Assembly: GCA_016209245.1 (NCBI GenBank)
Contig: JACQWN010000071.1
Span: forward strand, 1 to 34,206
DNA from: Bacteroidia bacterium
GTDB lineage: Bacteria; Bacteroidota; Bacteroidia; Bacteroidales; BM523
Length of the DNA: 34,206 nucleotides
Reading direction: 5' to 3'
The notes beneath the pieces were generated by a model. It was not told the origin of the DNA and did no database searches. It saw only the letters and a list, made by a program, of their open reading frames with translations. The position numbers were made by a program, and so were the translations under genes. This document shows positions 1,507 through 29,589 of the stretch, piece after piece. How positions within the stretch are numbered: position 1 is the first letter of the stretch; the number at the start of each line of letters is the position of its first letter.

Positions 1507-1523
1507 GGTCAGGTGGTCTGAAT

Positions 1524-6950: not shown

Positions 6951-6986
6951 AAATAGAGTCCCCTCTAAAAAGCCATTTTTGTTTAA

Positions 6987-7040
6987 CCGCAGAGTTATTT
7001 CGTTAAAAAAAATTTTTTTCAACGAAATAACTCTGTGGTA
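6987..7040. terminator. Hairpin terminator candidate (19-bp stem with one G:U, A8/T9 loop)
   Basis: ACCGCAGAGTTATTTCGTT (6987..7005) pairs with AACGAAATAACTCTGTGGT (7022..7040), about 37 nt after the stop at 6950. Confidence 0.6.
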
Positions 7041-7373
7041 AAATTTTGAGTTCTTGCTCTTGTCTTATAAAAAAATACGAAAAAACACTAATATAAAATA
7101 CGTATTTTCAACAATTGACAATGCTTTAATAATAGTTTATATTTGCATTATAAAAATGTTATCTCAAATAATCATTTGTCTGAAGATGAGACACTTAAAA
7201 ATATATAGCTATAGCATAAAAATATTTATTAATAAAATTTCCATATTTTTTTAACATTTTGTAACAAAAATTTTATTTATTCGTAGAAACATATAAAAGC
7301 AAATGTAATTGTCTAAGCAATAAAAAATAAAAATACGTAAAAAATATCAGATTTACTTACAAACTAATACAAT

Positions 7374-7901
7374 ATGCTAACTCTTGAAAAAACACAAACC
7401 ATTGACGACTTCAAAAAAATTGAAGAAGGAAAATATTGTCAATTAATAAACGGAGAAATAATAATGTCACCATCACCATCAACAAAACACCAGCGCATCA
7501 GTAAAAGAATTTTTAAAAAGATTGATGCTTATGTAGAAGAAAACTATTTAGGCGAAACATTTTACGCGCCAATAGATGTTTACTTTGACGAAGAAAACGC
7601 CTTTGAACCCGATATCCTCTTTGTTTCAAAAGAAAGATTAGATATAATCAAGGAAGACGGCATCTATGGCGCTCCAGACCTTGTCATTGAAATCCTCTCG
7701 CTATCCAACAGTTATCACGACACTAAAACTAAGAAGAAAATTTATGAAAAATACGGCGTGAAAGAATACTGGCTCGTTGACCCGATGGACGGCGAAGCTA
7801 TCGGTTTCAAAAATGAAAATGGAAAATTTATTGAGTTTTACAAAGGAACCGGCGAATTTACAATTAAATTACTAAGTCTGAAAATAGAATTTGTTTTTTA
7901 A
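7374..7901 (+). CDS. Uma2 family (DUF820) PD-(D/E)xK-type endonuclease
   Basis: 175 aa. Family-typical motifs QLINGEIIMSPSPSTKHQ, EPDILFV, GAPDLVIEILSLSN, KKKIYEKYGVKEYWLVDP. Confidence 0.85.
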   Translation: MLTLEKTQTIDDFKKIEEGKYCQLINGEIIMSPSPSTKHQRISKRIFKKIDAYVEENYLGETFYAPIDVYFDEENAFEPDILFVSKERLDIIKEDGIYGAPDLVIEILSLSNSYHDTKTKKKIYEKYGVKEYWLVDPMDGEAIGFKNENGKFIEFYKGTGEFTIKLLSLKIEFVF

Positions 7902-7917
7902 TTAAAATATTAAATAT

Positions 7918-8310
7918 ATGAAACCAGTACAAAAAATTACAATCGCAACAAAAGATAAAAAAAGCAGAACATTAGAAGCGCTTTTTGACAGCGGTTCATT
8001 TTACAATATTATCCGGAAGGACTCACTTCCCGAAACCCGATTTGCTAATTATTACGACGAACCTTGTGAATTTGGCACAGCAGCAATAGATAAAAAGTTT
8101 CAAATTATTGGTGAAGTTTCGCTTATAATGGAAATTGACAACCGCCGATTTGATGATATAGTCTTGATTTCTGAACAACTGTCATTAGAAATGATTATTG
8201 GTGCCAAAACAATGCAGGGATGGGATATTTCAATTGTTAATGAAAATGGACATACAAAAATTAAAGTAGGCCGCGATATGCGCGACCCTGATATAACAAC
8301 AATTGTGTAA
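7918..8310 (+). CDS. Retropepsin-like (clan AA) single-domain aspartic protease
   Basis: 130 aa. Catalytic-type motif ALFDSGSFYNII and downstream hydrophobic-hydrophobic-Gly motif EMIIGAKTMQGWDI. Paralogous to 9274..9669. Confidence 0.7.
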   Translation: MKPVQKITIATKDKKSRTLEALFDSGSFYNIIRKDSLPETRFANYYDEPCEFGTAAIDKKFQIIGEVSLIMEIDNRRFDDIVLISEQLSLEMIIGAKTMQGWDISIVNENGHTKIKVGRDMRDPDITTIV

Positions 8311-8315
8311 CAATT

Positions 8316-8702
8316 ATGGAATACACAGAACTCATACAACAATCGGAACGCTATCTGCAAAATGCGCAGGATACCCTGAAAAAAGCAGGCAGGGAAGATG
8401 GCTATTACAAAGATGAAAAATATGTGAAAAGCGCCTGCGGCACCGCCTATCTTGCCGCATTGCTGGCAACGGATGCTTTTCTGGCAAAATACGGCAAAAA
8501 AGTTCCGGAAAAAAAAGGGCGCAGACATGCCGATAATTACAGAGAACTCCTCACAAAACAAAACAAAAAAGTGCTAAATAGTTTCAATGCGGCTTATTAT
8601 GGGTTCCATATAGATGGTTATTATGGAGGAGTTTTAAAAGCAAATATCATTAAAGGATGGTTTGAAGCCCTTGAAGAACTGATTAATGAAGCTAAAAAAT
8701 GA
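8316..8702 (+). CDS. Small all-helical protein, DUF5618-like (tentative family call)
   Basis: 128 aa, 5 nt after the protease gene. The pattern Y.DEKYVKSACGTAYLAALLATDAFL...KG.R....Y...L.K.NKK.L..F..AY..FH..GYYGG resembles DUF5618 proteins as I recall them. No clean HEPN Rx4-6H motif seen. Confidence 0.55.
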   Translation: MEYTELIQQSERYLQNAQDTLKKAGREDGYYKDEKYVKSACGTAYLAALLATDAFLAKYGKKVPEKKGRRHADNYRELLTKQNKKVLNSFNAAYYGFHIDGYYGGVLKANIIKGWFEALEELINEAKK

Positions 8703-8815
8703 ATTTTATTAATAAACATATTATCTATCTCAAAATACCTGCACTGTTTGTAGTGATTTTATCAAACATTTCAGATATTAATGTTAAAAAGTTAAAAAAA
8801 ATGTTATACTGTTAA
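8699..8815 (+). pseudogene. Decayed copy A of the giant-adhesin 5' leader / signal peptide
   Basis: ATG overlaps the stop of 8316..8702 (ATGA). Translates MNFINKHIIYLKIPALFVVILSNISD... then stops. Compare the giant gene start MNFKHTYQPKFKITALFAALLLLANS. Confidence 0.5.
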
Positions 8816-8827
8816 AAACTTTTTACT

Positions 8828-9137
8828 ATGAAACAAAAGATTATTGAAAAAGTCCCTGGTTATGTAAAAGACCTGTTGCTACCGGAACTTAAAGAGCTGA
8901 AAAGCGATGTGAAAGAGGTGAGAAGTGAAATGAAAGAAGTGAGAATAGAAATGAAAGAAGTAAAAGGTTGACGGCTTACAAGCATCTTTTGATGCTAAGT
9001 TTGATGGAATGAAGACATCCTTTGACGCAAAATTTGAAGGACTGAATCATAAAGACGAAGCTATAAAAATTTATGCCGAAGCGACTAAAATGCTCATTGA
9101 AGAAATACGAGACCAACGCAGAAAAAATAACTGTTAA
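8828..9137 (+). pseudogene. Coiled-coil protein gene with an apparent +1 frameshift
   Basis: 8828..8971 encodes MKQKIIEKVPGYVKDLLLPELKELKSDVKEVRSEMKEVRIEMKEVKG then TGA. From 8970 the next frame continues in the same repeat style (DGLQASFDAKFDGMKTSFDAKFEGLNHKDEAIKIYAEATKMLIEEIRDQRRKNNC, stop 9135..9137). Deleting one T of GGTT at 8966..8969 joins them. Confidence 0.5.
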
Positions 9138-9162
9138 ACAATGACGATTTATGATTTAAAAC

Positions 9163-9258
9163 ATGAACACAATATTTAAATACATACTTAAACCCAAAAC
9201 CCCCGCCCTGTTTGCGGTGCTTTTATCACATTTTTCAGTCATTTTATTAAATTATTAA
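9163..9258 (+). pseudogene. Decayed copy B of the giant-adhesin 5' leader / signal peptide
   Basis: Translates MNTIFKYILKPKTPALFAVLLSHFSVILLNY then stops. Nt 9203..9224 (CCGCCCTGTTTGCGGTGCTTTT) matches 10132..10153 of the giant gene at 21 of 22 positions. Confidence 0.55.
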
Positions 9259-9273
9259 ATAAAATATAAAATT

Positions 9274-9669
9274 ATGGGCAGAGTCAGACAATATATTGAA
9301 GTAGGCGACAATAAACACTGGGCTTTATTTGACAGCGGAGCACGAAACACTTATGTTACAAAAGAAGTGGCGGCTAATCTTCCAAGATTTCAATTAGACA
9401 CGCCAAATCCGGTTGCGCTTGGCGGAAAAGTTCATTATGTAAATGAAGATTGCCGTTTAGTATGCAAAATAAAGGGATGTGAAATCCGTGCTAATGTACT
9501 TGTTCTTGACAGCATTGGGGAAGACGATGATGGAAAACCTGTTGAAGTACTTATTGGTGCAATCACTATGCAAAATTGGGGAATCGCCCTTTTCCCTGAA
9601 AAAGAAGACGTGGACATGAGCAATTATCCTAAAGAATTTGTTGAATTTTTAACCGTTAAAACACAATAA
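9274..9669 (+). CDS. Retropepsin-like (clan AA) single-domain aspartic protease
   Basis: 131 aa. Motifs WALFDSGARNTYV and EVLIGAITMQNWGIAL, the same motif pair as 7918..8310. Confidence 0.7.
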   Translation: MGRVRQYIEVGDNKHWALFDSGARNTYVTKEVAANLPRFQLDTPNPVALGGKVHYVNEDCRLVCKIKGCEIRANVLVLDSIGEDDDGKPVEVLIGAITMQNWGIALFPEKEDVDMSNYPKEFVEFLTVKTQ

Positions 9670-9671
9670 GC

Positions 9672-10091
9672 ATGGGAGAAATAAGAGCCAATATTTTGTT
9701 GAAAAACCAAGAGGACTTGTTCCTCTTAAGACAAAAGAAAATTAAGCAAAAAGACATTCGCAGTCTAACGATTAACGCATTGGTTGACACTGGAGCAGTT
9801 ATGACTTTGCTCCCTGAAGAAGTAATAGAAAAATTAGGGCTGTTCAATATTGACAAAAGAATAGTCGTATTGGCAGATGATACAAAACGAACTATGAATA
9901 TAGCCGGCTACTTTTCTCTTACTGTTTGCGAGCGAACTATGAGTAACGACTGCATTGTTGGTCCTCCGGGTTGCGAACCTCTGATTGGTCAGATTGTGTT
10001 GGAAACTCTGGACCTGATTTTAGATCCCTTGCACAAAACAATCTCGGTACGTCCCGAATCGCCATATCTACCAACATTAAAACTTAAATAA
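9672..10091 (+). CDS. Retropepsin-like (clan AA) aspartic protease, DTGA subtype
   Basis: 139 aa. Motifs INALVDTGAVMTLLPEEVIEKLGL and EPLIGQIVLETLDLILDP. Starts 2 nt after 9274..9669. Its TAA stop directly abuts the ATG of the giant gene (TAAATG). Confidence 0.75.
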   Translation: MGEIRANILLKNQEDLFLLRQKKIKQKDIRSLTINALVDTGAVMTLLPEEVIEKLGLFNIDKRIVVLADDTKRTMNIAGYFSLTVCERTMSNDCIVGPPGCEPLIGQIVLETLDLILDPLHKTISVRPESPYLPTLKLK

Positions 10092-13000
10092 ATGAATTTT
10101 AAACACACATATCAGCCAAAATTCAAAATAACCGCCCTGTTTGCGGCGCTTTTGTTGCTTGCAAATAGCTCTTTTGCTCTAACCTTTACTTCTATACAAA
10201 ACGGTAACTGGAATGATGGTGCTACATGGGGAAACGCCTCACCAGGAGTACAGGGAACAGATTGGCCTGCAAATACTGATGACGCTGTCATTGCTGCCGG
10301 TCATACCGTTACCCTGCCGCTAGGCATCGCATTCACTATTAACGCTCTTACTATTAACGCTACAGCCACTCTGAATGCAAACAACCTGGTATTTACCATT
10401 AATGGAAATCTGATTATTAACGGCACTTTAAATAACACTTCAGGGACTAATATAGACACCCGAATGTATGGTGCTTCTCTTGATGGCACAGGTCAAATAA
10501 CCGGAACAAATATGCGCTTTATCTTTTATGCAAATTGTGCAATACTAGCTACAGCAAACATTACTGTAACCAACATTAACCGTTTTCGGATAAGATTCGG
10601 CGCTAATGTGGTTACTAATAATGGAACTATCACCACTACCCCTAACCTCACTATTGTTAGAGATGGAGTAGGTGCAAACCCAACATGGACACAAGGCGCT
10701 AATTCTTATTTAGAAATTAATAATGTAATTAATACAGCTCAGGTGACATTTAACGCTTCTGCTGCAGGCAATACTGTAGTTTATAATGCAACCGGAAATA
10801 GAAATATCACCACCCCTTCAGCCAGCACTTATCACCACCTCACTATTTCAGGAAGTTCTACCAAAACCATGCTCGCATCTTTAATTATTAACGGCAATCT
10901 CACTATTAATGGTGGAACTCTTAACCCCGGTGCAAATGATATAAATATTACAATCAGGGGAAACTGGACCAATAGCGGAAGTTTTAATCCGACCACTGCC
11001 CGATGGCAACAGCGTGTAACCTTTGATGGCGGCAGCGACCAGTCAATTACCAATTCGTCCGGAGAATTATTTTACCGGTTAACTGTGTCAAAAGGAGGAG
11101 GAACACTCTTGTTGAATAATAATGTAAATATCAATGACGAGGGCAATACTAATGGCTTTGACCTTACCATGTCTGGCGGCAATATCAATACACAGGGTAA
11201 CACTATTACTTTGGGTAGTTCACTGGCATCCGGTGCAGGAACGCTTACCCGCACTGCAGGGCAAATTATTGGCAAAAGCGGGCGATGGGTAAATGCCACA
11301 GCGACTGATTTCACTTTCCCCGTAGGAACCGCTACTAATTATCGCCCCGCAGTGTTTAATGCCGCTGCAGGACTTACCAACGGATTCCTTATTATTGAAC
11401 ACATTAGCAGTACACCGGGCGCCTTATCGCCAAACCCGTTTACGGATGTTGTTGATCTTTATTACAATACTTATAACGATGGTTACTGGCAATTGAGCGT
11501 ACCTGGTGCCGATGCGGCTGTATGCACCGACTTCAATGTTAATTTAGACGGAAACGGTTTCACCGCTTTCCCAATAGAAAATGGTCCTATACATTTTACA
11601 CGTGTACTCAAACGCGTTTCTGGCGTCTGGCAGGCGGGCGCCTCCACTTGCATTAATGATGTTCCCGGCTGCCCTAATGGCGTAACAGGCAATGTGGTTT
11701 CGCGCAACCTGATTAGCGGAATTACAGGCGATTACGCTTTTATCAGCCGTTACAATTGTACACCGCCTTCTGCACCCACTATCAGCGGTACAGCAAGTGT
11801 TTGCACTAATCAACTTGATGTCGCATACTCCTGCACAGGCACCGCAAGCAGCACTTTTACATGGACAATTCCTACCGGTAATGGTACAATAGATGCACCA
11901 TCTTCCGGTGTTGGTGTTCAGAATATCACCGTTGACTGGGGTGCCACAGGAGGCAGTGCAACAGTACGCGTAGTGGAAAACAATGGCTGCTCCAATAGCG
12001 ACCCAGGCGACTTTGCGGTTACTATACATCCTGTTCCGACCTCTTCTATCACCGGCAGCAATAATGTTACTGAATATACCGATGGCGAGCCCTATTCGGT
12101 TACAAATACTGCCGGTTACACTTACACCTGGACCATCACAGGCGGCTCGGTTGCAAGCGGGCAGGGAACCAATGCCATTACCGTAAACTGGGGTGCATCT
12201 GGCGCCGGCAATGTGAATGTGGTTGCAACACCCACAGGCGGATGCCCTAATGATGCTCCTGTAAATTTACCGGTTACCATTGTTTCGGCTTATACTTCTA
12301 ACGGAACGGGAGGTGGCAACTGGGGAGATGCCGCATCATGGACCTGCCTCTGTGTGCCTTCCGCAACAAGCAGTATCAGAATTTTAAACGGGGATGTTAT
12401 AACCCGGACTCTTGCCACTCAAAATATTAGAAATGTAACTATAGATGTAGGAGGCATTTTGGATATAGGTGATCTCATCATGACTATTTCAGGAAATCTT
12501 GTCGCGGATGGTGAATTAAGAATGTCGGGAGCCACTGCCCGAACTCTGACTTTATCCGGTGTTGGTTCAACTTTGGGAGGTACCGGCTCTATAACGGCTA
12601 CCGCTGCTTGTGGAACTAAGAGTATAAGTATTTCAGAAGCAAAAACCATCCCTTCTTCTGCAAACCTGCTCATTACTAACGTAAGAATCTCTACCATCGG
12701 GGCAAATGTAACCGTTACTAACAACGGCACTGTGAGCATCAATTGCAATATTACTGGAAGCAGCGCAACTACATCAAAATGGGTCAATGCAGCGGGTTCG
12801 CGGCTGAATATCGGTAGCTCCTTGCTCTCTACCGGAGTGCTTGAAGCATCGGCCAGCGGCAACACCGTGAATTATAACCCAACGGCAGCACAAAATGTCA
12901 AAGTACCTGTAACCACCTACTATAACTTAGAAGTTACTTCAGGTGCGGCAACAGTTTCACTTATTGGCGCCACTACGGTGACTAACAGCTTGAACATTAT

Positions 13001-16000
13001 CACAGGACGTCTTTGGATTCAAGGAAATAGTATTACTGTAAATGACACTACTACGGTGAGTGGTACACTAGAAGATAATGATAATGCCGGAACAAATACC
13101 TTCACTTATATGGTGGTAAACCCTGGTGGCACGCTTACAACGCAAGGAGGTATCGCTGATCTTTATACGATAACCGCCAATCTGATTATGTATGGAGGCA
13201 CAATCACTTCTACCGCAGGCACAATACCTACTTACAATATAGGAGGTACATTTACAGTGCCAAGCGGCACGGCAACCATTGGAGCTGGAGAAGTTGTATT
13301 CACTATCAGTGGTGCAACAACTATTAGCGGAACGCTCAATATTTCCAGTGAATTAGGAACAAAGACATTCAATGATTTTACGATTAACACAGGAGGAACT
13401 TTCAACAGCAGCGTGGCTTCTGCTTTTGTAATAACCGGCAGTTTACAGAATGACGGCACATTCACATCGGACGCTGCCACCTATAACCTTAGCGGTGCGG
13501 GACCTCCTGTTGCAACAAAAACCATTAGCGGAACCAGCGGTTTCACTTTCGGCACAGGCATCGTTACAGTTAGCGGTACATATAATAACAATACAACGCT
13601 CACGGTTCCAAATCTTACCGTTACCGGCTCGCTTACCAATAATAGCACCTGCAATGTTACCACTACTTTTGATGGAGCAGGAACTTATACCAATGCTGCC
13701 GGCTCTACGCTGAATGTAAGCGTACCCGACCCTCCGGCCATAGCTGTTACGACTTTTGACCCGTCGGCAAATTGCAATTTGGTGAACTACAACGGCTCTG
13801 CTGCACAGACCATACGCGGTGCAACATACTGCAACCTGCAGGTAGCCACAACCGGTGGAGCAACGGCTACATTTAGCAATACTGTTCTCACTATCGTGAA
13901 CAACAATTTTACTGTTGTCAGCGGTGGAATAGCGGCTCATATAGGTGTTGTTAACTTAACGGTAAGCGGTTCTACGAGCATCACCGGCACGCTCAACTTT
14001 ACTACTGCTACCACAGGCACAAAATCTTTTAACAATGTAACTGTAAACGCAGGCGGTGTATGGAGCAATACGATTAATTCACCTGTCACCATCACCGGAA
14101 ATATTCAGCATGATGGAACAACATTTACATCGGGTACAGGGCTATATACCTTATCAGGAGCGACAAAGACCATTAGCGGTTCATCCTCTTTGAGCATCAG
14201 CGATGTTACTATTTCTGGATCCTATACAAACAATTACACTGTTGCATCCGGATGCACTTTGAGCACCGCGGGCTACTCTCTGGCCGGTGCGGGCAGTTTA
14301 ACACAAGCAACCAATGGGATCCTCTATATTGGTGGAAATGCTTCTATTACCACTCTTACAGCAACGGTCAATCCCAATACTGTTTACTATGTTCTGGCAC
14401 AGGCGGCACAAGATGTAAAGGCGACTATTTATCATCATCTGGAAATAAGCAAATCGGCAGGAACCGCTAACCTTACCGGAGCCACACAGGTCAATGGGAA
14501 CATTACCATTTCGGCAGGTACATTGAGCGCCAACGGAGCAAATAATATAACGCTTTATGGAAACTGGATAAATTCTGATATATTCACCGGCAGCACCGGA
14601 ACTGTAGTATTTACGGGAACTGCTGCACAAACCATTACCGGTGCAACCACTTTCAATAATTTCACATTAGACAAAGGAGCAGTATCCCAAACAGTAACTT
14701 TAAACAACAATACCACAATAGGCGGGATCCTGACTTTTACTCTCGGTAAAATTGTTACGGGTGGTAATTATGCTATTATTTCAGCAGGCGGAAGTGTTTC
14801 AGGGGCTTCAGCAACAACCGGCTGGGTGCAGGGATATTTACAGAAAAATGTTGCACTTGGCAGTCCTGTTACCCCCGATTTTGAAGTAGGAGGGAATTCT
14901 GTTTATGCTCCGGTAAACATGACATTTGCTAGTGTAACAGCGGCAGGCAATTTTATAGTAAAAACCACAGATGGCGACCATCCCGAGATTGCTTCGTCCA
15001 ACATCATTCCCACAGAAAGTTTGAACCGCTACTGGACCCTTATCAACTCAAGTGTTACATTCACCACATTTAACGCTACTTATAATTTCGTCCCCGGCGA
15101 CCTTGATGCCGGTGTTGACCCGACAGTTGCCGATTTCAACGGTAAAAGATTTGACAGCTTTAGCTGGAGCAGTATTAATGTAACTACAAGAAACGCTACA
15201 AACACAGTGGTTACAGGCGAACCTTTGGCCGCATACACGACTGGCCAATACCGCGAAACAGCACTTGGAATCAGCATCATTACCAGTGACATTTATACCA
15301 GAAGGACAAGCGCTGATTGCGGAGGTAACTGCTTGTGGAACGATAAAGCCACCTGGATACAATACCGCACAGGAAGTATAACTTATTCAAGCAGCAGTAC
15401 CACTGTTACCGGAACAGGTACAAAATTTACATCTGAGCTTGCTGTCAATGATGTTTTAATGTGTCAGACAACTCCAGGAACAATAATAGGAACTGTGTTT
15501 TCTATTACTGATAACAGCATATTAACTCTTTATGCTAATGCTACAGGAGACGGCAGTTGCGACTACGGCAGGCAAGCGGTTCCCAGTACAAACGACCAGA
15601 TTGTTTATATCGGCAATCCTAATGTTCTAGGTGGAGGAGTAGATGTTACCTTTAATCCGGCATCGGCAATTATCAATCAATTGGTGTTTTACAGATACAC
15701 CACACTCGATCTCATTTCAAATTCGCTTACTCATAATGCCGGAACAACACTTACCATTCAAATTTCAGCAACAGTGAATCAGCCCAATGCCGACGGTCAG
15801 ACCCATTCATGGAACATTAATAACGGGGGTAAAGTCAAAATCAATAGTAGTTTAACCATAGGCAGTAATGATGCTACTGCAACCCGTGTGGCGCGGGTGG
15901 TCAGCAACTACGGGGATTCTTTGAATATAGGCACGGGTCTGAAATTCCGTTGTGACGCTGGTTCTAACGCCATGGCAGTGCTTGATATGAGCGGTGGAAA

Positions 16001-19000
16001 CGGAGTGGTGAGCGTGGCTGGCGCAGTTACACTTGATAATGGAACAGGCACTATCAATGGCGGTGCTGCCGGCAGTATTACCGGAAATGGAACGAAAACA
16101 TTTGAAGTGGTCAGTGGCGCAACTTTCAGAATGAACGGAACTACCGTTTTCCCCACAGGCTTTGGCACTTATACATTTGGAAGCACCAGCACCACGCAAT
16201 ATTACCAAACCGATGCACAGAACATTTCGGCGCAGACTTATGGTCACCTGTATGTTGAGCCAACTACCAACGGCATTATCCATACATTTCTCGCAGTTAC
16301 CACAACTGTACAAGGAAATCTGCAGATAGGAAATGGCACAAATACCGCTGTCGTTGTGAACGGAAGCGGGGTCGGTACAACTGTTGATGTTAATGGCGAT
16401 ATTTCTATCAGAGCGAATACCACATTTAGCAATTCACTCATTCCTTCTATTTTTGCAGGAGGAAACTGGACGCAAAACGGAACTTTTACTGCAGCCACCG
16501 GCGATCTTGTAACTTTTGATGGTGCTACTAACTCTCAGGTTATCTCTGCAAGCACAGTTACGTTTCCGAATGTAACGGTATCCAAAGGAAGCGGAAACAC
16601 CTTGTCCACCAGCGGTGGGCTTACAACTGTAACCACCAACAACCTGACAGTTTCGGGCGGTACCTTTACTGCTCCGGCTACATTGAACATCAACTCTACA
16701 GCAACATCTGCATTAACGCTGAACAATGGTGGTACGTTCACTGCCGGAACTACTATCAACATCAATGGCAACTGGAATAAAAATATCGGTTCTATATTCA
16801 ACGAAGGAACAGGAACAGTAAATTTTACCAGCGCTACAACTCCTCAAACAATACAAGGAACTGCTGCTGCAGACACTTTCTATAATGTTACTGTTTCAAA
16901 ATCAGCAGCAGGAAATACAGTGAATACGGGCGGAGGCATTGTCACGGTAACCACCAATAATCTCACTATTACAACGGGAACTCTTACCGCTCCGCTTACA
17001 TTAAATATAAATGGGAATATGACACTCGCTTCGGGACAGACGCTAACTGCCGGCACAACGATTAACTCAAAAGGCAACTGGACCAACAATGGCGGTACAT
17101 TCACTCCAGGCGCCAATACGGTTGTCTTTAACGGAAGCGCAGCACAGCAAATAAACGGAACGGCAGCCACACAGACATTTTACAATTTTACAGTTACAAA
17201 AACAGGAAGCACTACGCTGGATGTTGGAGGAAGCACCACTACATTCAATGCAACCAATGTAACTCTCAACAGCAATACGTTTGCTGCGGGAACAGCAGCT
17301 ACAATAAATGTTTCAAGCGACTGGACCAATAATGGCGGAACATTTACACCCGGCACAGGAACCGTATTTTTCACCGGCACCGGAGCACAGCAAATCACCG
17401 GCACTGCCGCTTCTGAAACTTTCTATAATGTAACTTTATCCAAGACAGCAGCAACACTTTTGAATACAGGCGGAAGCATTGCTACGGTTACTGTAAATAA
17501 CCTAACCCAAACCACAGGTAATTTCACTGCACCTGCAACGCTTGACATCAATGGTAATTATTCGCTAGCAGCAAGTCAGACATTTACTGCAGGTGCAAAT
17601 ATTTACGTAGGTGGCAACTGGACATGGACCAACACAGGCATATTTACACCAGGTACTGGCACCGTAACTTTTGACGGCAGTGGAGCGCAGCAAATCAACG
17701 GTACACAGGTTACTCAAACATTCTACAATTTTACAGTTGCAAAGACAGCAGGCACTGCATTAACTGTCGGGGGAAGCACAACTACGCTCAATTCGCAGAC
17801 TTACACCAATACTTCCGGCAACTATACCGCACCGGCTACTTTCATTGTTACCGCTAATGTATTGTTAACAGCTGGCACCTTTACTGCGGGCGCAGCCACC
17901 AATGTTGGCGGCAACTGGACAAATGACGGAGGCACTTTCACCCCAGGAACCAACACTGTAACATTTAATGGAACAGTATCGCAGTTAATTGGCGGCACTG
18001 CCGCTTCGCAGACATTTTATAATGTTTCCAAAAGCGACGTCTCAGTTATGCAAACCACAGGCGCCAGTCTGGCAACACTGACCTTTAATGCATATACCCA
18101 GAGCAATGGCGACTTCAATGCTTCAACACTTACCACATTCAATATAAATAACACTATCAATCACACAGCAGGGACATTTACAGCTCCGGGAGGCACAATT
18201 GTGAAAGGTACGGGCAACTGGACCAACAGCGGAACATTTGTACACAACAGCGGAACTGTGCAGTTCAACAGCTCTCTCACACTTGGAGGAACTTCAACAT
18301 ATAGTTTTAATAATGTAACTATTTCGGGCGGAGTACTCACAGCTCCAGCAGCGAATATGAATGTGGCGGGCAACTGGACTAACAACTCATCCTTCACGCA
18401 CAACAGCGGAACAGTAACGCTTAATGGCAATAATGTTCAGCAAACAATTGGAGGAACAATATCCACTACATTCAACAATCTCACGGTAAATAATTCATAT
18501 CCGGGTTATGCTGTTACCTTTTCTGCGCCTGAAACCGTAAGCGGTATTCTCACGCTTACCGATGGGCATATAACAACCACTGCAACCAATATTTTAACGC
18601 TTGATGCTTCTGCATCAGTAACATTAGGCGGAGCGCCGCAGGACAGCAGCTTTATCAAAGGTCCAATGAATCATACTGTAAATATCGCCACGTCTGTTAC
18701 AAAAATATATCCTGTCGGAAAAGGTAATTCGTACCGCAGAATGGAGCTGACCATTGACCAGAATGTAGTAACATCAACCACTTATACAGCAGAGTTGTTT
18801 AATCAGAATGCTACGACAGGAGGTTGTTCTACTCTTCCCGGCACGATAGATAAAGTTTCGCAAACACGATATTATAATATATCACAATCGCCGGCAACAG
18901 GGCTTGATGCGGCATCAATAAGAATGTATTTCGGATGTTCGGGTAAAAATGATGGTGTAACCGACCTTGCAAATTTAGCAGTAGCAAAAACCAATTGCCC

Positions 19001-19700
19001 TGATGTCTGGACTGATTTAAGCGGCATAACAGGTGGTACAGCTGCCTGTGGCGGTTCTTACTTTGAAGGTTATATTGATGCTTCATTTACTTCGTTCAGC
19101 AGGTTTGCACTTGCTAATAAAACAGGAGGCACTAATCCACTGCCCGTCGAACTACTTTCTTTTACCGCTGAATTGGACCACGGCCATGTTCAACTTGAAT
19201 GGACAACCGCCTCGGAAAAAAACAACGACTATTTTATAGTCCAAAAAACCCTCGATGGAGCATCTTTTGAAGAAGTAGCAAGAATTCCTGGCGGAGATAA
19301 TAGCAACAATGTTTTACACTATTCGGCAACAGATAATGAACCTTACTTCGGGGTTTCATATTATCAGCTTGTTCAGGTTGATTTTAACGGAAAAACTTAT
19401 TATTCCAACCTGGTTGCTATAGATAATTCAAATCCCGATTATTCGCTTGTTATCTATCCTAATCCTGCTAATAGCCAGTTTATTTATATCAACATCAAAG
19501 GTATCAGAAATCCGGGAAAAGCCGATGTTACATTCTACGATCTTTATGGCAGAAGCGTTTTATCAGATTCATTCGCTCTTTTCAGTCCGGAAACTACCGA
19601 ATTTATCGAAATTGATTTACGTGCAGGTATTTATTATACGAAGGTTACTATCGGGGAGCATGAATTTTTGACGGTAAAGTTGGTTGTTAAAGACTTCTGA
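10092..19700 (+). CDS. Giant (3202-aa) beta-helix/Ig-repeat adhesin-like T9SS cargo protein
   Basis: Single uninterrupted ORF with signal peptide ...ITALFAALLLLANSSFA and cap motif FTSIQNGNWNDGATWGN. Two PKD/Ig-like modules (CTPPSAPTISGTASVC...; ...WTITGGSVASGQGTNAITVNWG). Long tandem repeats. Pre-CTD domain NPLPVELLSFTAELDHGHVQLEWTT. CTD LVIYPNPANSQFIYINI...GIYYTKVTIG. Confidence 0.9.
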   Translation: MNFKHTYQPKFKITALFAALLLLANSSFALTFTSIQNGNWNDGATWGNASPGVQGTDWPANTDDAVIAAGHTVTLPLGIAFTINALTINATATLNANNLVFTINGNLIINGTLNNTSGTNIDTRMYGASLDGTGQITGTNMRFIFYANCAILATANITVTNINRFRIRFGANVVTNNGTITTTPNLTIVRDGVGANPTWTQGANSYLEINNVINTAQVTFNASAAGNTVVYNATGNRNITTPSASTYHHLTISGSSTKTMLASLIINGNLTINGGTLNPGANDINITIRGNWTNSGSFNPTTARWQQRVTFDGGSDQSITNSSGELFYRLTVSKGGGTLLLNNNVNINDEGNTNGFDLTMSGGNINTQGNTITLGSSLASGAGTLTRTAGQIIGKSGRWVNATATDFTFPVGTATNYRPAVFNAAAGLTNGFLIIEHISSTPGALSPNPFTDVVDLYYNTYNDGYWQLSVPGADAAVCTDFNVNLDGNGFTAFPIENGPIHFTRVLKRVSGVWQAGASTCINDVPGCPNGVTGNVVSRNLISGITGDYAFISRYNCTPPSAPTISGTASVCTNQLDVAYSCTGTASSTFTWTIPTGNGTIDAPSSGVGVQNITVDWGATGGSATVRVVENNGCSNSDPGDFAVTIHPVPTSSITGSNNVTEYTDGEPYSVTNTAGYTYTWTITGGSVASGQGTNAITVNWGASGAGNVNVVATPTGGCPNDAPVNLPVTIVSAYTSNGTGGGNWGDAASWTCLCVPSATSSIRILNGDVITRTLATQNIRNVTIDVGGILDIGDLIMTISGNLVADGELRMSGATARTLTLSGVGSTLGGTGSITATAACGTKSISISEAKTIPSSANLLITNVRISTIGANVTVTNNGTVSINCNITGSSATTSKWVNAAGSRLNIGSSLLSTGVLEASASGNTVNYNPTAAQNVKVPVTTYYNLEVTSGAATVSLIGATTVTNSLNIITGRLWIQGNSITVNDTTTVSGTLEDNDNAGTNTFTYMVVNPGGTLTTQGGIADLYTITANLIMYGGTITSTAGTIPTYNIGGTFTVPSGTATIGAGEVVFTISGATTISGTLNISSELGTKTFNDFTINTGGTFNSSVASAFVITGSLQNDGTFTSDAATYNLSGAGPPVATKTISGTSGFTFGTGIVTVSGTYNNNTTLTVPNLTVTGSLTNNSTCNVTTTFDGAGTYTNAAGSTLNVSVPDPPAIAVTTFDPSANCNLVNYNGSAAQTIRGATYCNLQVATTGGATATFSNTVLTIVNNNFTVVSGGIAAHIGVVNLTVSGSTSITGTLNFTTATTGTKSFNNVTVNAGGVWSNTINSPVTITGNIQHDGTTFTSGTGLYTLSGATKTISGSSSLSISDVTISGSYTNNYTVASGCTLSTAGYSLAGAGSLTQATNGILYIGGNASITTLTATVNPNTVYYVLAQAAQDVKATIYHHLEISKSAGTANLTGATQVNGNITISAGTLSANGANNITLYGNWINSDIFTGSTGTVVFTGTAAQTITGATTFNNFTLDKGAVSQTVTLNNNTTIGGILTFTLGKIVTGGNYAIISAGGSVSGASATTGWVQGYLQKNVALGSPVTPDFEVGGNSVYAPVNMTFASVTAAGNFIVKTTDGDHPEIASSNIIPTESLNRYWTLINSSVTFTTFNATYNFVPGDLDAGVDPTVADFNGKRFDSFSWSSINVTTRNATNTVVTGEPLAAYTTGQYRETALGISIITSDIYTRRTSADCGGNCLWNDKATWIQYRTGSITYSSSSTTVTGTGTKFTSELAVNDVLMCQTTPGTIIGTVFSITDNSILTLYANATGDGSCDYGRQAVPSTNDQIVYIGNPNVLGGGVDVTFNPASAIINQLVFYRYTTLDLISNSLTHNAGTTLTIQISATVNQPNADGQTHSWNINNGGKVKINSSLTIGSNDATATRVARVVSNYGDSLNIGTGLKFRCDAGSNAMAVLDMSGGNGVVSVAGAVTLDNGTGTINGGAAGSITGNGTKTFEVVSGATFRMNGTTVFPTGFGTYTFGSTSTTQYYQTDAQNISAQTYGHLYVEPTTNGIIHTFLAVTTTVQGNLQIGNGTNTAVVVNGSGVGTTVDVNGDISIRANTTFSNSLIPSIFAGGNWTQNGTFTAATGDLVTFDGATNSQVISASTVTFPNVTVSKGSGNTLSTSGGLTTVTTNNLTVSGGTFTAPATLNINSTATSALTLNNGGTFTAGTTININGNWNKNIGSIFNEGTGTVNFTSATTPQTIQGTAAADTFYNVTVSKSAAGNTVNTGGGIVTVTTNNLTITTGTLTAPLTLNINGNMTLASGQTLTAGTTINSKGNWTNNGGTFTPGANTVVFNGSAAQQINGTAATQTFYNFTVTKTGSTTLDVGGSTTTFNATNVTLNSNTFAAGTAATINVSSDWTNNGGTFTPGTGTVFFTGTGAQQITGTAASETFYNVTLSKTAATLLNTGGSIATVTVNNLTQTTGNFTAPATLDINGNYSLAASQTFTAGANIYVGGNWTWTNTGIFTPGTGTVTFDGSGAQQINGTQVTQTFYNFTVAKTAGTALTVGGSTTTLNSQTYTNTSGNYTAPATFIVTANVLLTAGTFTAGAATNVGGNWTNDGGTFTPGTNTVTFNGTVSQLIGGTAASQTFYNVSKSDVSVMQTTGASLATLTFNAYTQSNGDFNASTLTTFNINNTINHTAGTFTAPGGTIVKGTGNWTNSGTFVHNSGTVQFNSSLTLGGTSTYSFNNVTISGGVLTAPAANMNVAGNWTNNSSFTHNSGTVTLNGNNVQQTIGGTISTTFNNLTVNNSYPGYAVTFSAPETVSGILTLTDGHITTTATNILTLDASASVTLGGAPQDSSFIKGPMNHTVNIATSVTKIYPVGKGNSYRRMELTIDQNVVTSTTYTAELFNQNATTGGCSTLPGTIDKVSQTRYYNISQSPATGLDAASIRMYFGCSGKNDGVTDLANLAVAKTNCPDVWTDLSGITGGTAACGGSYFEGYIDASFTSFSRFALANKTGGTNPLPVELLSFTAELDHGHVQLEWTTASEKNNDYFIVQKTLDGASFEEVARIPGGDNSNNVLHYSATDNEPYFGVSYYQLVQVDFNGKTYYSNLVAIDNSNPDYSLVIYPNPANSQFIYINIKGIRNPGKADVTFYDLYGRSVLSDSFALFSPETTEFIEIDLRAGIYYTKVTIGEHEFLTVKLVVKDF
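16460..18490 (+). repeat. About 8-9 tandem ~85-95-aa coding repeats inside the giant gene
   Basis: Recurring unit GGNWTNNGGTFTPGTGTV.F.G..AQQI.GT.A..TFYN.TV.KT....L..GGS..T......L.....FTAP.TL.I.GN. Boundaries approximate. Confidence 0.7.
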
Positions 19701-20458: not shown

Positions 20459-21049
20459 TCATATAGACCCTCTACGAATAAATACTTCGCTTAAATCTAT
20501 TTCCAAATCTTTAAAAATACTAACTTTCACTTTATCTGTATAAGAATATATTTTTCCAGATTGGTATTTACCTTCCTTATCTAATTTGTAAATATGTAAT
20601 AATTCTTCCTCAGGCTGAACAATCCAATATTCTTTAACACCCGCCTCCTGATATAATAAAAATTTTTCATGAATATCTTTCTGTTTTGTAGAAGGGGATA
20701 AGACTTCAACAATTAAATCAGGTGCGCCAAGACATCCTTTATCATCAATTTTTTTGGGATCGCATACTACAACAATATCCGGTTGTACGACAGTATAAAT
20801 ATCTTTATCATCAGTTCCTTTTTTTGGCAGGCGGACATCAAAAGGAGCATAAAAAACTTCACATTTATTTTTTTTTCCTATAAAATTATATATTCTTCCG
20901 AATATAGTTCTTGAAACGCGTTGATGAAAAGTAGATGGAGCAGGGCTCATTTCATATACACGGCCATTTATCAGCTCATAGTATTTTCCATCATCCCATT
21001 TCAGATAATCAGCATACGTATAAAGCTGTGCAGAATCCATAGCTTCCAT
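20459..21049 (-). CDS. Uma2 family (DUF820) endonuclease
   Basis: 196 aa. Motifs YELINGRVYEMSPAPSTFHQ, QPDIVVVC, GAPDLIVEVLSPSTKQKDIHEKFLLYQEAGVKEYWIVQP. Confidence 0.85.
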   Translation of the reverse strand: MEAMDSAQLYTYADYLKWDDGKYYELINGRVYEMSPAPSTFHQRVSRTIFGRIYNFIGKKNKCEVFYAPFDVRLPKKGTDDKDIYTVVQPDIVVVCDPKKIDDKGCLGAPDLIVEVLSPSTKQKDIHEKFLLYQEAGVKEYWIVQPEEELLHIYKLDKEGKYQSGKIYSYTDKVKVSIFKDLEIDLSEVFIRRGSI

Positions 21050-24363: not shown

Positions 24364-24897
24364 TAAGTTTTAAAATTTCAGGAAAAATATTAATTTATTT
24401 ATTAACGAAAATAAAAAATATACAAATTCTTTATATTATTAGACATTTGCAAGGGAAAAAGGAATAGAAATCCCGTATCTTTTCAGAGTTTTACATATCT
24501 GAAAATAAAGGAATTCATATTCTTTTGAATTCTTTGATTGTTCCATGTTTTATCCAGTTTTTAATTTCAGTCATTTAATATTAAAATAGAAATTAAATTG
24601 CATACATAAATTTATTTATTTATTGTACAAAATTATAACTAAATTTATGTTTATAACTTTGTCAATAATTTTATATAATTATTAATATTTCTACTTGCAA
24701 ATAAATAACAGCAAATTCTATGTTCAATTTTTTCTGTTTTCAAAATATATTCTTTCAAATTTTATTAATAATAGTTTTATATGTTATGAACATAAATATT
24801 TTATTTTAAAAAAAATTTTTTTAACAAGCTGATTTATTAACAATTTGTTGATATAACAGGTAAAATATTATTTATCAATATATATAATATGTTAATT

Positions 24898-24913
24898 CAG
24901 TGTTAAAACACTG
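24898..24913. promoter_or_regulatory. Perfect palindrome CAGTGTTAAAACACTG upstream of nadA (possible operator)
   Basis: 7-bp arms CAGTGTT/AACACTG, about 110 nt upstream of the nadA ATG, within a 660-bp AT-rich intergenic region. Confidence 0.3.
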
Positions 24914-25022
24914 TTCTTTATTTATTATTTTTTAAAAAAACAAATAATTTTGAAAAAAATTATACCGTTATTAACAGACATTATTATTCTTATATAATAA
25001 ATTTTTTTAAATATAAATAAAA

Positions 25023-28775: not shown

Positions 28776-28839
28776 CTTGCAGGCATTGTGCCACTAAAAG
28801 AACCGAATGGGCGAAAGGGCGAGTGGGAGAAGTGGCGAT

Positions 28840-29541: not shown

Positions 29542-29589
29542 AAAAGCGCCGGGAATGCCATGTCCGGTACAGTCGGCAACGGCAACTAT

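What the first reader, a model, noticed from the sequence alone, without database searches (positions are those of the whole stretch)
7918..10094. Three single-domain retropepsin-like protease genes, including an adjacent pair fused stop-to-start with a T9SS giant adhesin
Three 130-139-aa ORFs carry the retropepsin signature. These are D(S/T)G (ALFDSGS, ALFDSGA, LVDTGA) and the later hydrophobic-hydrophobic-Gly motif (IIGAKTMQGW, LIGAITMQNW, LIGQIVLETL). Retropepsins work as homodimers. Here two different subtypes lie 2 nt apart (9274..9669 DSGA type, 9672..10091 DTGA type), which would permit a heterodimer. The DTGA gene's stop directly abuts the adhesin ATG. The third copy is paired (5-nt gap) with a DUF5618-like helical protein, an arrangement that resembles a two-gene toxin/antitoxin or enzyme/inhibitor module. 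A Uma2 nuclease gene heads the string. I know of no described role for free-standing bacterial retropepsins in adhesin processing or in defence-type modules, so either reading would be new.
Basis: partly seen in the sequence, partly recalled or inferred. Interest (0 to 1): 0.7.

Follow-up and report, generated by a model that had tools for sequence, protein, structure and literature searches.

The report
Mobile small retropepsin-like genes before adhesin
Three small genes upstream of a giant secreted adhesin really do encode HIV-protease-like proteins, but they look like independently mobile single genes that were inserted in front of the adhesin rather than a machine that processes it.

Summary
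ORFs 7918-8310 (A'), 9274-9669 (A) and 9672-10091 (B) exist with the stated motifs and spacings. All three are clan AA retropepsin-fold proteins. AlphaFold models of A and B match Ddi1, HIV-1 and HTLV proteases, and the A' profile matches Ty3 protease, DDI1 and family A.

In 80 genomic loci holding family A, B is directly adjacent in only one or two. A'-DUF5618 adjacency is seen only in this window. Neighbours are heterogeneous and mostly housekeeping genes. Linkage to T9SS cargo is not significant (p=0.32). None of the three proteins has a signal peptide.

A and B behave as solo, horizontally spread single-gene units of about a 30-nt leader plus the ORF. They are sometimes wedged inside operons (rplJ-rplL, gltB-gltD, a cmr operon). 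In some Bacteroidota they sit with the same companions: Uma2, DUF5618-like and a coiled-coil gene.

In this window the gene blocks are separated by two extra copies of the first ~65 nt of the adhesin gene. This points to serial recombination at the adhesin 5' end, between its only recognisable promoter and its ATG, and explains the stop-to-start abutment.

Function remains inferred: probably homodimeric cytoplasmic aspartic proteases of a conflict or defence type.

The parts
7115..7145 (+). Only recognisable promoter-like site upstream of the array (TTGACA-17-TATATT overlapping a Bacteroidetes-type -7 box, TATATTTG)
   Evidence: No + strand terminator-like site lies between it and the adhesin ATG. 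A 31-nt-arm hairpin at 6982-7043 follows the preceding gene.
7374..7901 (+). Uma2 (DUF820) PD-(D/E)XK nuclease-family gene
   Evidence: PF05685 E 8e-31. PADLOC candidate PDC-S03 E 7e-41. Homologs sit next to A or A' in L010 and L004-L007.
7918..8310 (+). A': 130-aa single-domain retropepsin-like protein (DSGS type), from a rare family
   Evidence: Only 14 homologs found. Its family profile hits Ty3 protease at E 2e-6, and DDI1 and ASPRV1 at about 6e-4. hhalign to family A gives 97.5% probability, E 8e-12. D24 and G95 are invariant.
8316..8702 (+). DUF5618 helical protein (PaREP1/HEPN-like, without the Rx4-6H motif)
   Evidence: PF18498 E 7e-31, with weak PaREP1 and HEPN hits. PDB 3mfn E 2e-21. 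No conserved Arg of an Rx4-6H motif.
8699..8815 (+). Stub 1: a copy of the adhesin gene's start codon and signal-peptide start (MNFINKHIIYLKIPALFVVILS...), overlapping the DUF5618 stop (ATGA)
   Evidence: 41 of 66 nt are identical to the adhesin start in register from the ATG. The null over 1198 other ATG sites has mean 19.7, sd 3.6, max 31.
8828..9137 (+). Frameshifted pseudogene of a small coiled-coil protein
   Evidence: tblastn of the L010 146-aa protein hits two different frames. The intact homolog lies 11 nt upstream of an A gene in L010.
9163..9258 (+). Stub 2: a second copy of the adhesin start (MNTIFKYILKPKTPALFAVLLS...)
   Evidence: 42 of 66 nt identical to the adhesin start and 44 of 66 to stub 1, with the same 44-nt ATG-to-CTGTTTG spacing in all three copies.
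9274..9669 (+). A: 131-aa retropepsin-fold protein (DSGA type)
   Evidence: AF2 pLDDT 90. Foldseek top hits are Ddi1 RVP, HIV-1 and EIAV proteases, probability 1.0, TM 0.62-0.69. 95 homologs across many phyla. 89% DNA identity to L001, restricted to 9246-9649.
9672..10091 (+). B: 139-aa clan AA aspartic protease (DTGA type)
   Evidence: TIGR03698 E 1e-12, PF13650 above its cutoff. AF2 pLDDT 91.5, with HIV-1 and HTLV protease as top fold hits. More than 285 homologs, many annotated as clan AA aspartic protease. The native C-terminus ...LPTLKLK is conserved.
10092..19700 (+). 3202-aa T9SS cargo adhesin whose 5' end is the repeated sequence
   Evidence: C-terminal sorting-domain hit. Start MNFKHTYQPKFKITALFAALLLL. 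Homologous cargo lies next to A in L002 and L013.

Best explanation
The three ORFs are real genes for small cytoplasmic single-domain retropepsin-fold (clan AA) proteins. They belong to two lineages: A and A' are sister families that public sources leave unannotated, and B belongs to the annotated 'clan AA aspartic protease' family (TIGR03698 / PF13650 / PF13975 type).

Each keeps the catalytic D-S/T-G-A loop and the hydrophobic-hydrophobic-Gly motif. The most likely molecular activity is therefore a homodimeric aspartic endopeptidase (inferred).

They are not a dedicated unit with each other, with DUF5618 or with the adhesin. Each is an independent, horizontally spread single-gene unit of about a 30-nt leader plus the ORF, ending at its stop codon. 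Such units turn up alone between unrelated genes in many phyla. In some lineages they accumulate in tightly packed same-strand arrays with other small conflict-system genes (Uma2, DUF5618/PaREP1-like, a coiled-coil gene, MNT/HEPN, HicAB).

In this window three such blocks sit between the only recognisable promoter and the adhesin ATG: Uma2-A'-DUF5618, a decayed coiled-coil gene, and A-B. Each block is followed by a copy of the first ~65 nt of the adhesin gene. The array was therefore built by repeated recombination at the adhesin 5' end. This explains why the B stop touches the adhesin ATG, and means the small genes are probably co-transcribed with the adhesin (inferred).

The biological role is most likely that of a conflict-system protease (defence- or toxin-like). 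That role is inferred, not shown.
For: Fold and family:
- A model pLDDT 90; top fold hits Ddi1, HIV-1 and EIAV proteases.
- B model pLDDT 91.5; top fold hits HIV-1 and HTLV proteases.
- A' profile hits Ty3, DDI1 and ASPRV1, and hhalign to A gives 97.5%.
- B hits TIGR03698 at E 1e-12.
- The catalytic Asp and the motif Gly are invariant in all three families.

Solo, mobile behaviour:
- The 80 family A loci span Bacteroidota, Planctomycetota, Poribacteria, Cloacimonadota, Elusimicrobia, Spirochaetes and one archaeon, at 45-65% identity.
- Neighbours are heterogeneous and mostly housekeeping genes.
- The family is small: 377 representatives at 50% clustering among 1.84e9 proteins.
- DNA similarity of window A to L001 (89%) and of window B to L092 (76%) is confined to the ORF plus about 30 nt upstream, ending at or within about 20 nt of the stop codon.
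- B homologs are wedged between rplJ and rplL, between gltB and gltD, and between cmr3 and cmr4 on Synechocystis plasmids. On those plasmids an Uma2 gene also sits between cas10 and cmr3.

Recurring companions:
- L010 carries A, A', Uma2, the coiled-coil gene, a second A and a DUF5618-like gene, in a different order from the window.
- L004 carries a PaREP1/DUF5618-like gene, A' and Uma2.

Insertion at the adhesin 5' end:
- Three in-register copies of the adhesin start share 41-44 of 66 nt, against a null maximum of 31.
- L001 shows an analogous 91-nt duplicate of the hdrA-like 5' end flanking a toxin-antitoxin island that contains a 90%-identical A.
- L013 has a 27-codon stub of the adhesin 3' end after the inserted block.

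Transcription: one promoter-like site and no + strand terminator-like site before the adhesin.

Conflict-system link:
- Small retropepsin-domain proteins are listed as type III CRISPR accessory genes in Sulfolobales (PMC3973734).
- B gives weak hits to PADLOC candidates PDC-M08B and PDC-M52B.
- MNT, HicAB, RHH and YgiT/MqsA-like neighbours occur in several loci.
Against: - No biochemical or phenotypic evidence exists for protease activity or for defence or toxicity.
- A and A' score below the curated Pfam and NCBIfam cutoffs.
- Few immediate neighbours of A are known defence genes. The defence reading therefore rests on a minority of loci.
- Flanking direct repeats occur at only 5 of 82 A genes. 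This is not significantly more than for other small ORFs in the same loci (8 of 286, p=0.17). Insertion with target-end duplication is therefore not shown to be a general property of the family.
- Adjacent pairs of retropepsin-like genes occur more often than random placement of such rare genes would give: window A-B, L010 A-A', L027 A-A, L096 B-B, L079 A-B. Occasional hetero-oligomers cannot be excluded.
- No empty-site relative of the adhesin locus was found.
- Co-transcription is inferred from consensus scans only.
Confidence: 0.6

Rival explanations
1. A and B form a heterodimeric retropepsin that is functionally coupled to the adhesin, for example by processing or by translational coupling.
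For: The A-B gap is 2 nt and the B-adhesin gap is 0 nt. Adjacent retropepsin-like pairs recur: L010 A-A', L027 A-A, L079 A-B, L096 B-B. A lies next to homologous T9SS adhesins in L002 and L013.
Against: - B is directly adjacent to A in only 1 of 80 genomic loci, plus L001 with a 300-nt gap. Most A and B genes are solo.
- Both families are abundant in phyla without T9SS.
- Neither protein has a signal peptide, whereas T9SS cargo is Sec-exported and its C-terminal domain is removed at the outer membrane (established knowledge).
- The near-versus-far comparison for T9SS cargo gives p=0.32.
- A lies before the adhesin in the window and L002 but after it in L013.
- The abutment is explained by the duplicated adhesin start stubs.
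Confidence: 0.06
2. A' plus DUF5618 (and by analogy A plus a small downstream gene) is a two-gene toxin/antitoxin or enzyme/inhibitor module.
For: - The A'-DUF5618 gap is 5 nt.
- DUF5618-like genes occur in 6 different loci that hold A or A': the window, L004/L006, L010, L021 and L028.
- A is followed within 16-95 nt by a conserved 76-aa gene in 4 Planctomycetota loci and by YgiT/MqsA-type zinc-finger genes in Poribacteria.
- MNT or RHH genes lie downstream in L035, L061 and L020.
Against: - No partner is conserved. The A' neighbours are Uma2, T9SS cargo, an AMP-binding enzyme or A.
- Where DUF5618-like genes are present, they lie upstream or downstream at variable distance.
- DUF5618 has no DNA-binding domain and lacks the HEPN Rx4-6H motif.
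- Most A loci have housekeeping neighbours.
Confidence: 0.12
3. The proteins are housekeeping regulatory proteases with a specific cellular substrate, like RimB in Pseudomonas.
For: RimB is a cytoplasmic free-standing retropepsin-like protease with a dedicated substrate (PMC11957791). Family A is strongly conserved, including its exact N- and C-termini. In Planctomycetota, A holds a syntenic position next to a Carb_kinase gene in 8 species.
Against: Distribution is patchy and multi-copy across distant phyla, with variable neighbours. There is no conserved partner such as RimK or RimA. A gene 90% identical at the protein level sits in an unrelated locus.
Confidence: 0.08
4. The retropepsin-like proteins are catalytically dead scaffolds or binding modules.
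For: The residue after the catalytic Asp varies in family A (S, T, N, G or P), which would weaken the 'fireman's grip'.
Against: The Asp and the Gly of the motif are invariant or nearly so in all three families, and the window copies have canonical DSG or DTG.
Confidence: 0.08

Closest known systems
Free-standing prokaryotic 'clan AA aspartic protease' (NCBIfam TIGR03698 clan_AA_DTGF; Pfam PF13650 and PF13975)
   Same: B matches these models (TIGR03698 E 1e-12; PF13650 above its cutoff). Its homologs are annotated this way, it is about 140 aa, single-domain, and has no signal peptide.
   Different: B scores below the TIGR03698 cutoff (47.9 versus 57.35 bits). A and A' match only at E 0.003-0.01 and are 'hypothetical protein' in public sources. 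They form separate, much rarer families with their own conserved termini (MGRVR... and ...YPKEFVEF).
Small retropepsin-domain accessory protein of type III CRISPR loci (Asp_prot, Saci_1895; Vestergaard et al. 2014, PMC3973734)
   Same: A single retropepsin domain of about 100 aa encoded among defence genes. A B-like gene sits inside a cmr operon on Synechocystis plasmids.
   Different: There is no CRISPR-cas in this window. The function of the CRISPR-associated protein is also unknown. Sequence relationship to Saci_1895 was not tested.
RimB and RloA retropepsin-like proteases of Pseudomonas (PMC11957791, PMC12239564)
   Same: Bacterial retropepsin-like aspartic proteases with a DTG motif and a dimeric model. 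RimB is cytoplasmic.
   Different: RimB and RloA act in fixed rimABK or rlo operons on polyglutamylated RpsF or periplasmic targets. The window genes have no such partners, belong to different Pfam families, and are patchy and mobile.
Ddi1 RVP domain and retroviral proteases (HIV-1, EIAV, HTLV; Ty3)
   Same: These are the best structural matches for the A and B models (probability 1.0, TM 0.6-0.75). They share the catalytic loop and are homodimeric in all solved cases.
   Different: Sequence identity is 13-23%. The window genes are not part of a polyprotein or retroelement, have no UBL or UBA domains, and are prokaryotic solo genes.
PADLOC phage-defence candidates PDC-S03 (Uma2-like) and PDC-M08B / PDC-M52B
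   Same: The Uma2 gene matches PDC-S03 strongly (E 7e-41). B matches the B components of PDC-M08 and PDC-M52 weakly, around the DTG loop.
   Different: The B hits have E 0.002-0.014 and cover only about 40 residues. These are untested candidate systems. The partner A components were not looked for.

Membership tests
Clan AA retropepsin-like aspartic peptidase | Catalytic Asp in a hydrophobic-hydrophobic-D-S/T-G-A loop | tested here: met
   ALFDSGS, ALFDSGA and LVDTGA. The Asp is invariant in all three family alignments.
Clan AA retropepsin-like aspartic peptidase | Downstream hydrophobic-hydrophobic-Gly motif | tested here: met
   IIGA, LIGA and LIGQ. The Gly is invariant in each family: G95 in A, G95 in A', G106 in B.
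Clan AA retropepsin-like aspartic peptidase | Retropepsin beta-barrel fold | tested here: met
   A model pLDDT 90, matching Ddi1, HIV-1 and EIAV proteases. B model pLDDT 91.5, matching HIV-1 and HTLV proteases. A' was tested by profile only: Ty3 protease E 2e-6 and hhalign to A 97.5%.
Clan AA retropepsin-like aspartic peptidase | Score above the curated cutoff of a Pfam or NCBIfam clan AA model | tested here: inconclusive
   B: PF13650 25.9 bits versus a 24.3 cutoff (met); PF13975 26.6 versus 28.2 and TIGR03698 47.9 versus 57.35 (not met). A and A' are below all cutoffs.
Clan AA retropepsin-like aspartic peptidase | Homodimer with an Asp dyad; pepstatin-sensitive proteolysis | not testable with these tools
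   No multimer prediction or biochemistry is available here.
Type II toxin-antitoxin two-gene module (A' with DUF5618) | The same two families adjacent in the same order across genomes | tested here: not met
   They are adjacent only in this window. The A' neighbours elsewhere are Uma2, T9SS cargo, an AMP-binding enzyme or A. DUF5618-like genes lie at variable positions in 5 other loci.
HEPN superfamily nuclease (DUF5618 gene) | Conserved Rx4-6H catalytic motif | tested here: not met
   Only a conserved His in LH...(F/Y)Y...G, with no conserved Arg 4-6 residues upstream, in 8 aligned DUF5618-like sequences. The Pfam HEPN hit has E 0.059 and the PaREP1 hit E 7e-4.
Integron gene-cassette array | attC recombination site (50 nt or more) after each cassette, and an IntI integrase | tested here: not met
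   Gaps between genes are 16, 5, 2 and 0 nt, which leaves no room for attC. The repeated elements are copies of the adhesin coding start, not attC-like palindromes. No integrase was seen among the listed ORFs, but this was not searched exhaustively.
T9SS cargo-associated processing factor | Export signal, and conserved linkage to genes with a T9SS C-terminal domain | tested here: not met
   The N-termini have no hydrophobic signal sequence. Both families are widespread outside T9SS-bearing phyla. T9SS cargo lies within 2 genes in 7 of 56 cases and further away in 3 of 53, p=0.32.

The most novel reading that the evidence does not exclude
Retropepsin A, A' and B, Uma2, DUF5618-like and the coiled-coil gene could be cargo of an undescribed cassette-capture process that needs no integrase. 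In it, promoterless single-gene units (short leader plus ORF) are inserted precisely at gene boundaries inside transcribed operons or 5' leaders. Each event duplicates the end of the target gene, about 30-280 nt, so that the host gene stays intact. The result is an integron-like array driven by a host promoter, here that of a T9SS adhesin. A stronger variant is that the small retropepsin-fold protein itself contributes to this mobility or to post-insertion addiction.
Probability: 0.1. Interest if true: 0.75.

Novelty: new member of a known kind. Interest (0 to 1): 0.4.

Why it matters
Free-standing bacterial retropepsins are barely studied. RimB, RloA and APRc are the few with a known role. 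This work shows that the window holds three of them from two lineages. Family A is a rare, highly conserved, cross-phylum and cross-domain solo gene with no annotation. Such genes keep company with Uma2, DUF5618-like and toxin-antitoxin genes, and can sit inside core operons and CRISPR cmr operons. That makes them candidates for a new class of single-gene conflict-system proteases. The duplicated adhesin start stubs also give a concrete, testable case of how small accessory genes are stacked between a promoter and a surface-adhesin gene. Such stacking could affect adhesin expression.

Tried and rejected
1. Integron cassettes. Rejected: intergenic gaps of 0-16 nt leave no room for attC, and the repeats are coding starts of the adhesin.

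2. Conserved A-B pair. Rejected by an HMM scan of 80 loci.

3. T9SS linkage. It looked striking at first, but the near-versus-far Fisher test gave p=0.32. From my own knowledge, these genomes are also rich in T9SS cargo.

4. Target-end duplication as a hallmark of family A. Clear individual cases exist (L025, L031, L065, L075, L045, L013, L001, the window). However, 5 of 82 A genes against 8 of 286 other small ORFs gives p=0.17, so it is not specific to A.

5. Defence-island enrichment. Only a few immediate neighbours of A hit PADLOC models.

6. Search for an empty site or sister cassettes with the stub core (CCGCCCTGTTTGCGGYGCTTTT) in metagenome contigs. It returned one unrelated high-GC, phage-like contig, a chance terminator-like match.

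7. Phage origin. No A relatives in the viral contig collection, no B relatives in GenBank phages, and no A in plasmids.

8. Rfam scan of the whole window: no hits.

9. Literature search for 'retropepsin-like' with toxin-antitoxin, and for DUF5618: no papers.

10. Heterodimer modelling could not be run.

Full report
**1. Observation**

The ORF list and the sequence show the genes exactly as described:
- Uma2, 7374-7901.
- A', 7918-8310, 130 aa, with ALFDSGS and IIGAKTMQGW.
- A DUF5618 gene, 8316-8702, 5 nt after A'.
- A, 9274-9669, 131 aa, with ALFDSGA and LIGAITMQNW.
- B, 9672-10091, 139 aa, with LVDTGA and LIGQIVLETL, 2 nt after A.
- A 3202-aa ORF whose ATG (10092) follows the B stop codon directly.

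Pfam confirms Uma2 (E 8e-31) and DUF5618 (E 7e-31). The large ORF and three other proteins in the window carry a T9SS C-terminal sorting domain.

**2. Are they retropepsin-like?**

Yes, all three.
- Single-sequence profile hits are weak for A and A' (RVP, Ty3 peptidase or Asp_protease_2 at E 0.003-0.014, below cutoffs). They are better for B: PF13650 above its cutoff, and TIGR03698 at E 1e-12 but below its cutoff.
- Family alignments make the case. In each family the Asp of D-S/T-G and the Gly of the hydrophobic-hydrophobic-Gly motif are invariant.
- The A' profile hits Ty3 protease (E 2e-6), DDI1 and ASPRV1 in the PDB. It matches the A profile at 97.5% probability.
- The AlphaFold model of A (pLDDT 90) retrieves Ddi1 RVP domains and HIV-1 and EIAV proteases, at probability 1.0 and TM 0.62-0.69.
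- The model of B (pLDDT 91.5) retrieves HIV-1 and HTLV proteases.
- A and B are only marginally related to each other (hhalign 41%, E 3e-4).
- None of the three has an N-terminal hydrophobic signal sequence.

**3. Family sizes and spread**

- B has more than 285 homologs at the 90% clustering level, in Elusimicrobia, Deltaproteobacteria, Planctomycetota, Spirochaetes and other phyla. Many are annotated 'clan AA aspartic protease'.
- A has 95 homologs. An exhaustive profile search of 1.84 billion representatives found only 377. Even so, it occurs in many bacterial phyla and in one Halobacteriota MAG, at 45-65% identity.
- A has strikingly conserved exact termini, MGRVR... and ...YPKEFVEF.
- A' is rare, with 14 homologs.

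**4. Neighbourhoods**

I fetched 80 genomic loci with family A, plus metagenomic and plasmid loci for A, A' and B.

HMM scans show that B is directly adjacent to A only in L079, and in L001 with a 300-nt gap.

The immediate neighbours of A differ in size, strand and family. They include tRNA synthetases, Carb_kinase, ILVD, methyltransferases and a few MNT genes. Few hit PADLOC defence models.

The A' neighbours are:
- Uma2 (L004-L007)
- A T9SS PhoD cargo protein (L008)
- An AMP-binding enzyme (L009)
- A (L010)

DUF5618 is immediately adjacent to A' only in this window.

B is found:
- Between rplJ and rplL, together with an MNT/HEPN pair (L090)
- Between gltB and gltD (L100)
- Before a peptidase M42 gene (L098)
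- As a tandem duplicate (L096)
- Between cmr3 and cmr4 of a type III-B operon on Synechocystis plasmids, where an Uma2 gene sits between cas10 and cmr3

The fixed-pair readings (A/B heterodimer, A'/DUF5618 module) are therefore not supported.

One weaker regularity does hold. The same small families recur together in variable order:
- L010 has A, A', Uma2, the coiled-coil gene, a second A, a PD-(D/E)XK gene and a DUF5618-like gene.
- L004 has a PaREP1/DUF5618-like gene, A' and Uma2.
- L021 and L028 have A with DUF5618-like genes.
- Adjacent retropepsin-like pairs (A-A', A-A, B-B, A-B) occur in about 6% of loci.

That pair frequency is more than random placement of such rare genes would give. 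It fits clustering or tandem duplication as well as it fits heteromerisation.

**5. T9SS linkage**

T9SS cargo lies next to A-type genes in the window, L002/3, L004, L008, L013, L015/16 and L027. The L002 and L013 cargo proteins are homologs of the window adhesin's C-terminal ~480 residues.

However, a near-versus-far comparison within loci from the Fibrobacteres-Chlorobi-Bacteroidetes (FCB) group gives 7 of 56 against 3 of 53, p=0.32. A lies upstream of the adhesin in two loci and downstream in one. Both families also abound in phyla without T9SS.

T9SS cargo is Sec-exported and its C-terminal domain is removed at the cell surface (established knowledge). A cytoplasmic retropepsin would have no access to it. 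An adhesin-processing role is therefore unlikely.

**6. Why B's stop touches the adhesin ATG**

The first ~65 nt of the adhesin gene (ATG plus MNFKHTYQPKFKITALFAALL) occur three times in direct orientation:
- At 8699, overlapping the DUF5618 stop as ATGA
- At 9163
- At the real start, 10092

All three have the same 44-nt spacing from the ATG to the CTGTTTG core. In register from the ATG, the copies share 41-44 of 66 nt. Over 1198 other ATG sites in the window the mean is 19.7, the sd 3.6 and the maximum 31.

The two stubs also share about 15 nt beyond the point where they diverge from the adhesin.

The region is therefore three blocks, each followed by an adhesin start:
- Uma2-A'-DUF5618
- A frameshifted coiled-coil gene (8828-9137)
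- A-B

DNA similarity of A to L001 (89%) spans only 9246-9649. Similarity of B to L092 (76%) spans only 9641-10091. The units are thus about a 30-nt leader plus the ORF, ending at or within about 20 nt of the stop codon. The C-terminus of B is the native, conserved ...LPTLKLK.

L001 shows the same pattern. A toxin-antitoxin island contains an A gene 90% identical at the protein level. That island is flanked by 75-91-nt copies of the 5' end of the downstream hdrA-like gene. In L013 a block of A plus one other gene is followed by an isolated 27-codon stub of the upstream adhesin's 3' end.

Similar brackets occur in L025, L031, L045, L065 and L075. My control shows this is not specific to A: 5 of 82 against 8 of 286, p=0.17.

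The mechanism is not resolved. Candidates are Campbell-type or homology-facilitated recombination of units that carry a copy of the target gene's end. The integron model fails because there is no room for attC.

**7. Transcription**

The only good promoter-like site is at 7115-7145 (TTGACA-17-TATATT overlapping TATATTTG). It follows a strong hairpin at 6982-7043. No + strand terminator-like site lies between it and 10092.

The small genes are therefore probably carried on the adhesin's 5' leader transcript. This is an inference from consensus scans.

**8. Function**

Shown:
- The retropepsin fold
- The intact catalytic motifs
- Absence of a recognisable N-terminal export signal, so a cytoplasmic location is likely
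- Solo, patchy, horizontally spread distribution

Inferred: homodimeric aspartic endopeptidases acting in a conflict-system context. The support is as follows.
- Small retropepsin-domain proteins are recorded as accessory genes of type III CRISPR loci in Sulfolobales (PMC3973734).
- A B-like gene sits inside a cmr operon.
- B weakly matches PADLOC candidates PDC-M08B and PDC-M52B, and the Uma2 gene strongly matches PDC-S03.
- MNT/HEPN, HicAB, RHH and YgiT/MqsA-type neighbours occur in a minority of loci.

Against this, most immediate neighbours of A are ordinary genes. No A relatives were found in the viral contig collection, no B relatives in the GenBank phage records, and no A in plasmids.

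**9. Comparison with known systems**

- B is a member, at family level, of the annotated free-standing clan AA proteases.
- A and A' are unannotated sister families with the same fold.
- None resembles RimB or RloA in context or APRc (membrane-anchored, from my knowledge of PMC4140852).

The result is therefore new members of a known but functionally uncharacterised kind. The adhesin-linked heterodimer and the toxin-antitoxin pair are not supported. The stacked-cassette architecture at the adhesin 5' end is the most interesting by-product and deserves strain-level follow-up.

Noticed in passing
window 8699-8815, 9163-9258, 10092-10160: There are three in-register direct copies of the adhesin gene's start codon plus signal-peptide start. 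Two are short dead-end ORFs of 38 and 31 aa. All share the core CCNGCNCTGTTTG..G.G.TTTT, a small hairpin-like motif. The two stubs also share about 15 nt (ATCAnAnnTTTCAG) that is absent from the adhesin.
   Followed up: yes
window 8828-9137: A frameshifted pseudogene of a small coiled-coil protein. The intact 146-aa homolog lies 11 nt upstream of an A gene in L010, and a 72-aa coiled-coil/TM gene precedes A' in L004.
   Followed up: partly
L001 6291-6393, 9278-9366, 10410-10524: There are three copies of the 5' end of an hdrA-like gene. They flank or interrupt a 4-kb island holding MNT, HicB, HicA, A, a B-like gene, PDDEXK_2 and DUF4258 plus a YgiT zinc-finger gene. The island is inserted inside an hdr/hydrogenase operon. 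Internally deleted remnants of MNT genes lie at 9947-10027 and 10196-10254.
   Followed up: partly
L105 and L106 (Synechocystis plasmids NZ_CP054307.1 and NZ_CP063660.1): A clan AA aspartic protease gene lies between cmr4 and cmr3, on the opposite strand. An Uma2 endonuclease gene lies between cmr3 and cas10 of a type III-B CRISPR operon. This is the same two families as in the window, here as interlopers in a defence operon.
   Followed up: no
L090 1511-4361; L100 4939-5537: B-family genes are wedged inside core operons. One lies between rplJ and rplL, together with DUF2971 and an MNT/HEPN pair. Another lies between gltB and gltD. No flanking repeats were detectable in either case.
   Followed up: partly
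L010 465-508 versus 2164-2207: A 44-nt stub (93% identical) of the leader plus the first 26 nt of an A gene lies between Uma2 and the coiled-coil gene. It is another truncated gene start inside a cassette-like array.
   Followed up: no
L004 552-696 versus 2813-2958; 1593-1625, 2048-2080 and 2798-2826: A 150-nt repeat holds TTTGTAA-rich promoter-like sequence plus the signal-peptide start of two small secreted paralogs. It brackets a block that contains A' and Uma2. A 33-nt repeat separates the individual genes.
   Followed up: no
L057, L069, L073 and L075 (Planctomycetota), 16 nt downstream of A: A conserved 76-aa gene (MKKANKKKMADDLRPEYDLSKLKGGVRGKYAKRF...) directly follows A in several Planctomycetota. 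It has no Pfam or NCBIfam hit and looks antitoxin-like. In L075 it is duplicated around another small ORF.
   Followed up: partly
window 20459-21049 (- strand): A second Uma2-family gene in the window (jackhmmer E 3e-67 to the first).
   Followed up: no
window 1522-3356 versus 28838-31038: Direct-repeat similarity of 65-76% between two distant - strand gene regions, apparently paralogous genes. There are also four T9SS C-terminal-domain proteins in the 34 kb and a very AT-rich stretch at 24001-25000 (GC 0.24).
   Followed up: no
window 9672-19700: B and the adhesin are in the same reading frame, separated by a single TAA. Stop-codon read-through would fuse B to the adhesin pre-protein.
   Followed up: no
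L002 about 1250-1290: A (GA)n microsatellite lies between A and the start of the adhesin paralog. It could be a slippage-prone tract upstream of a surface protein gene.
   Followed up: no
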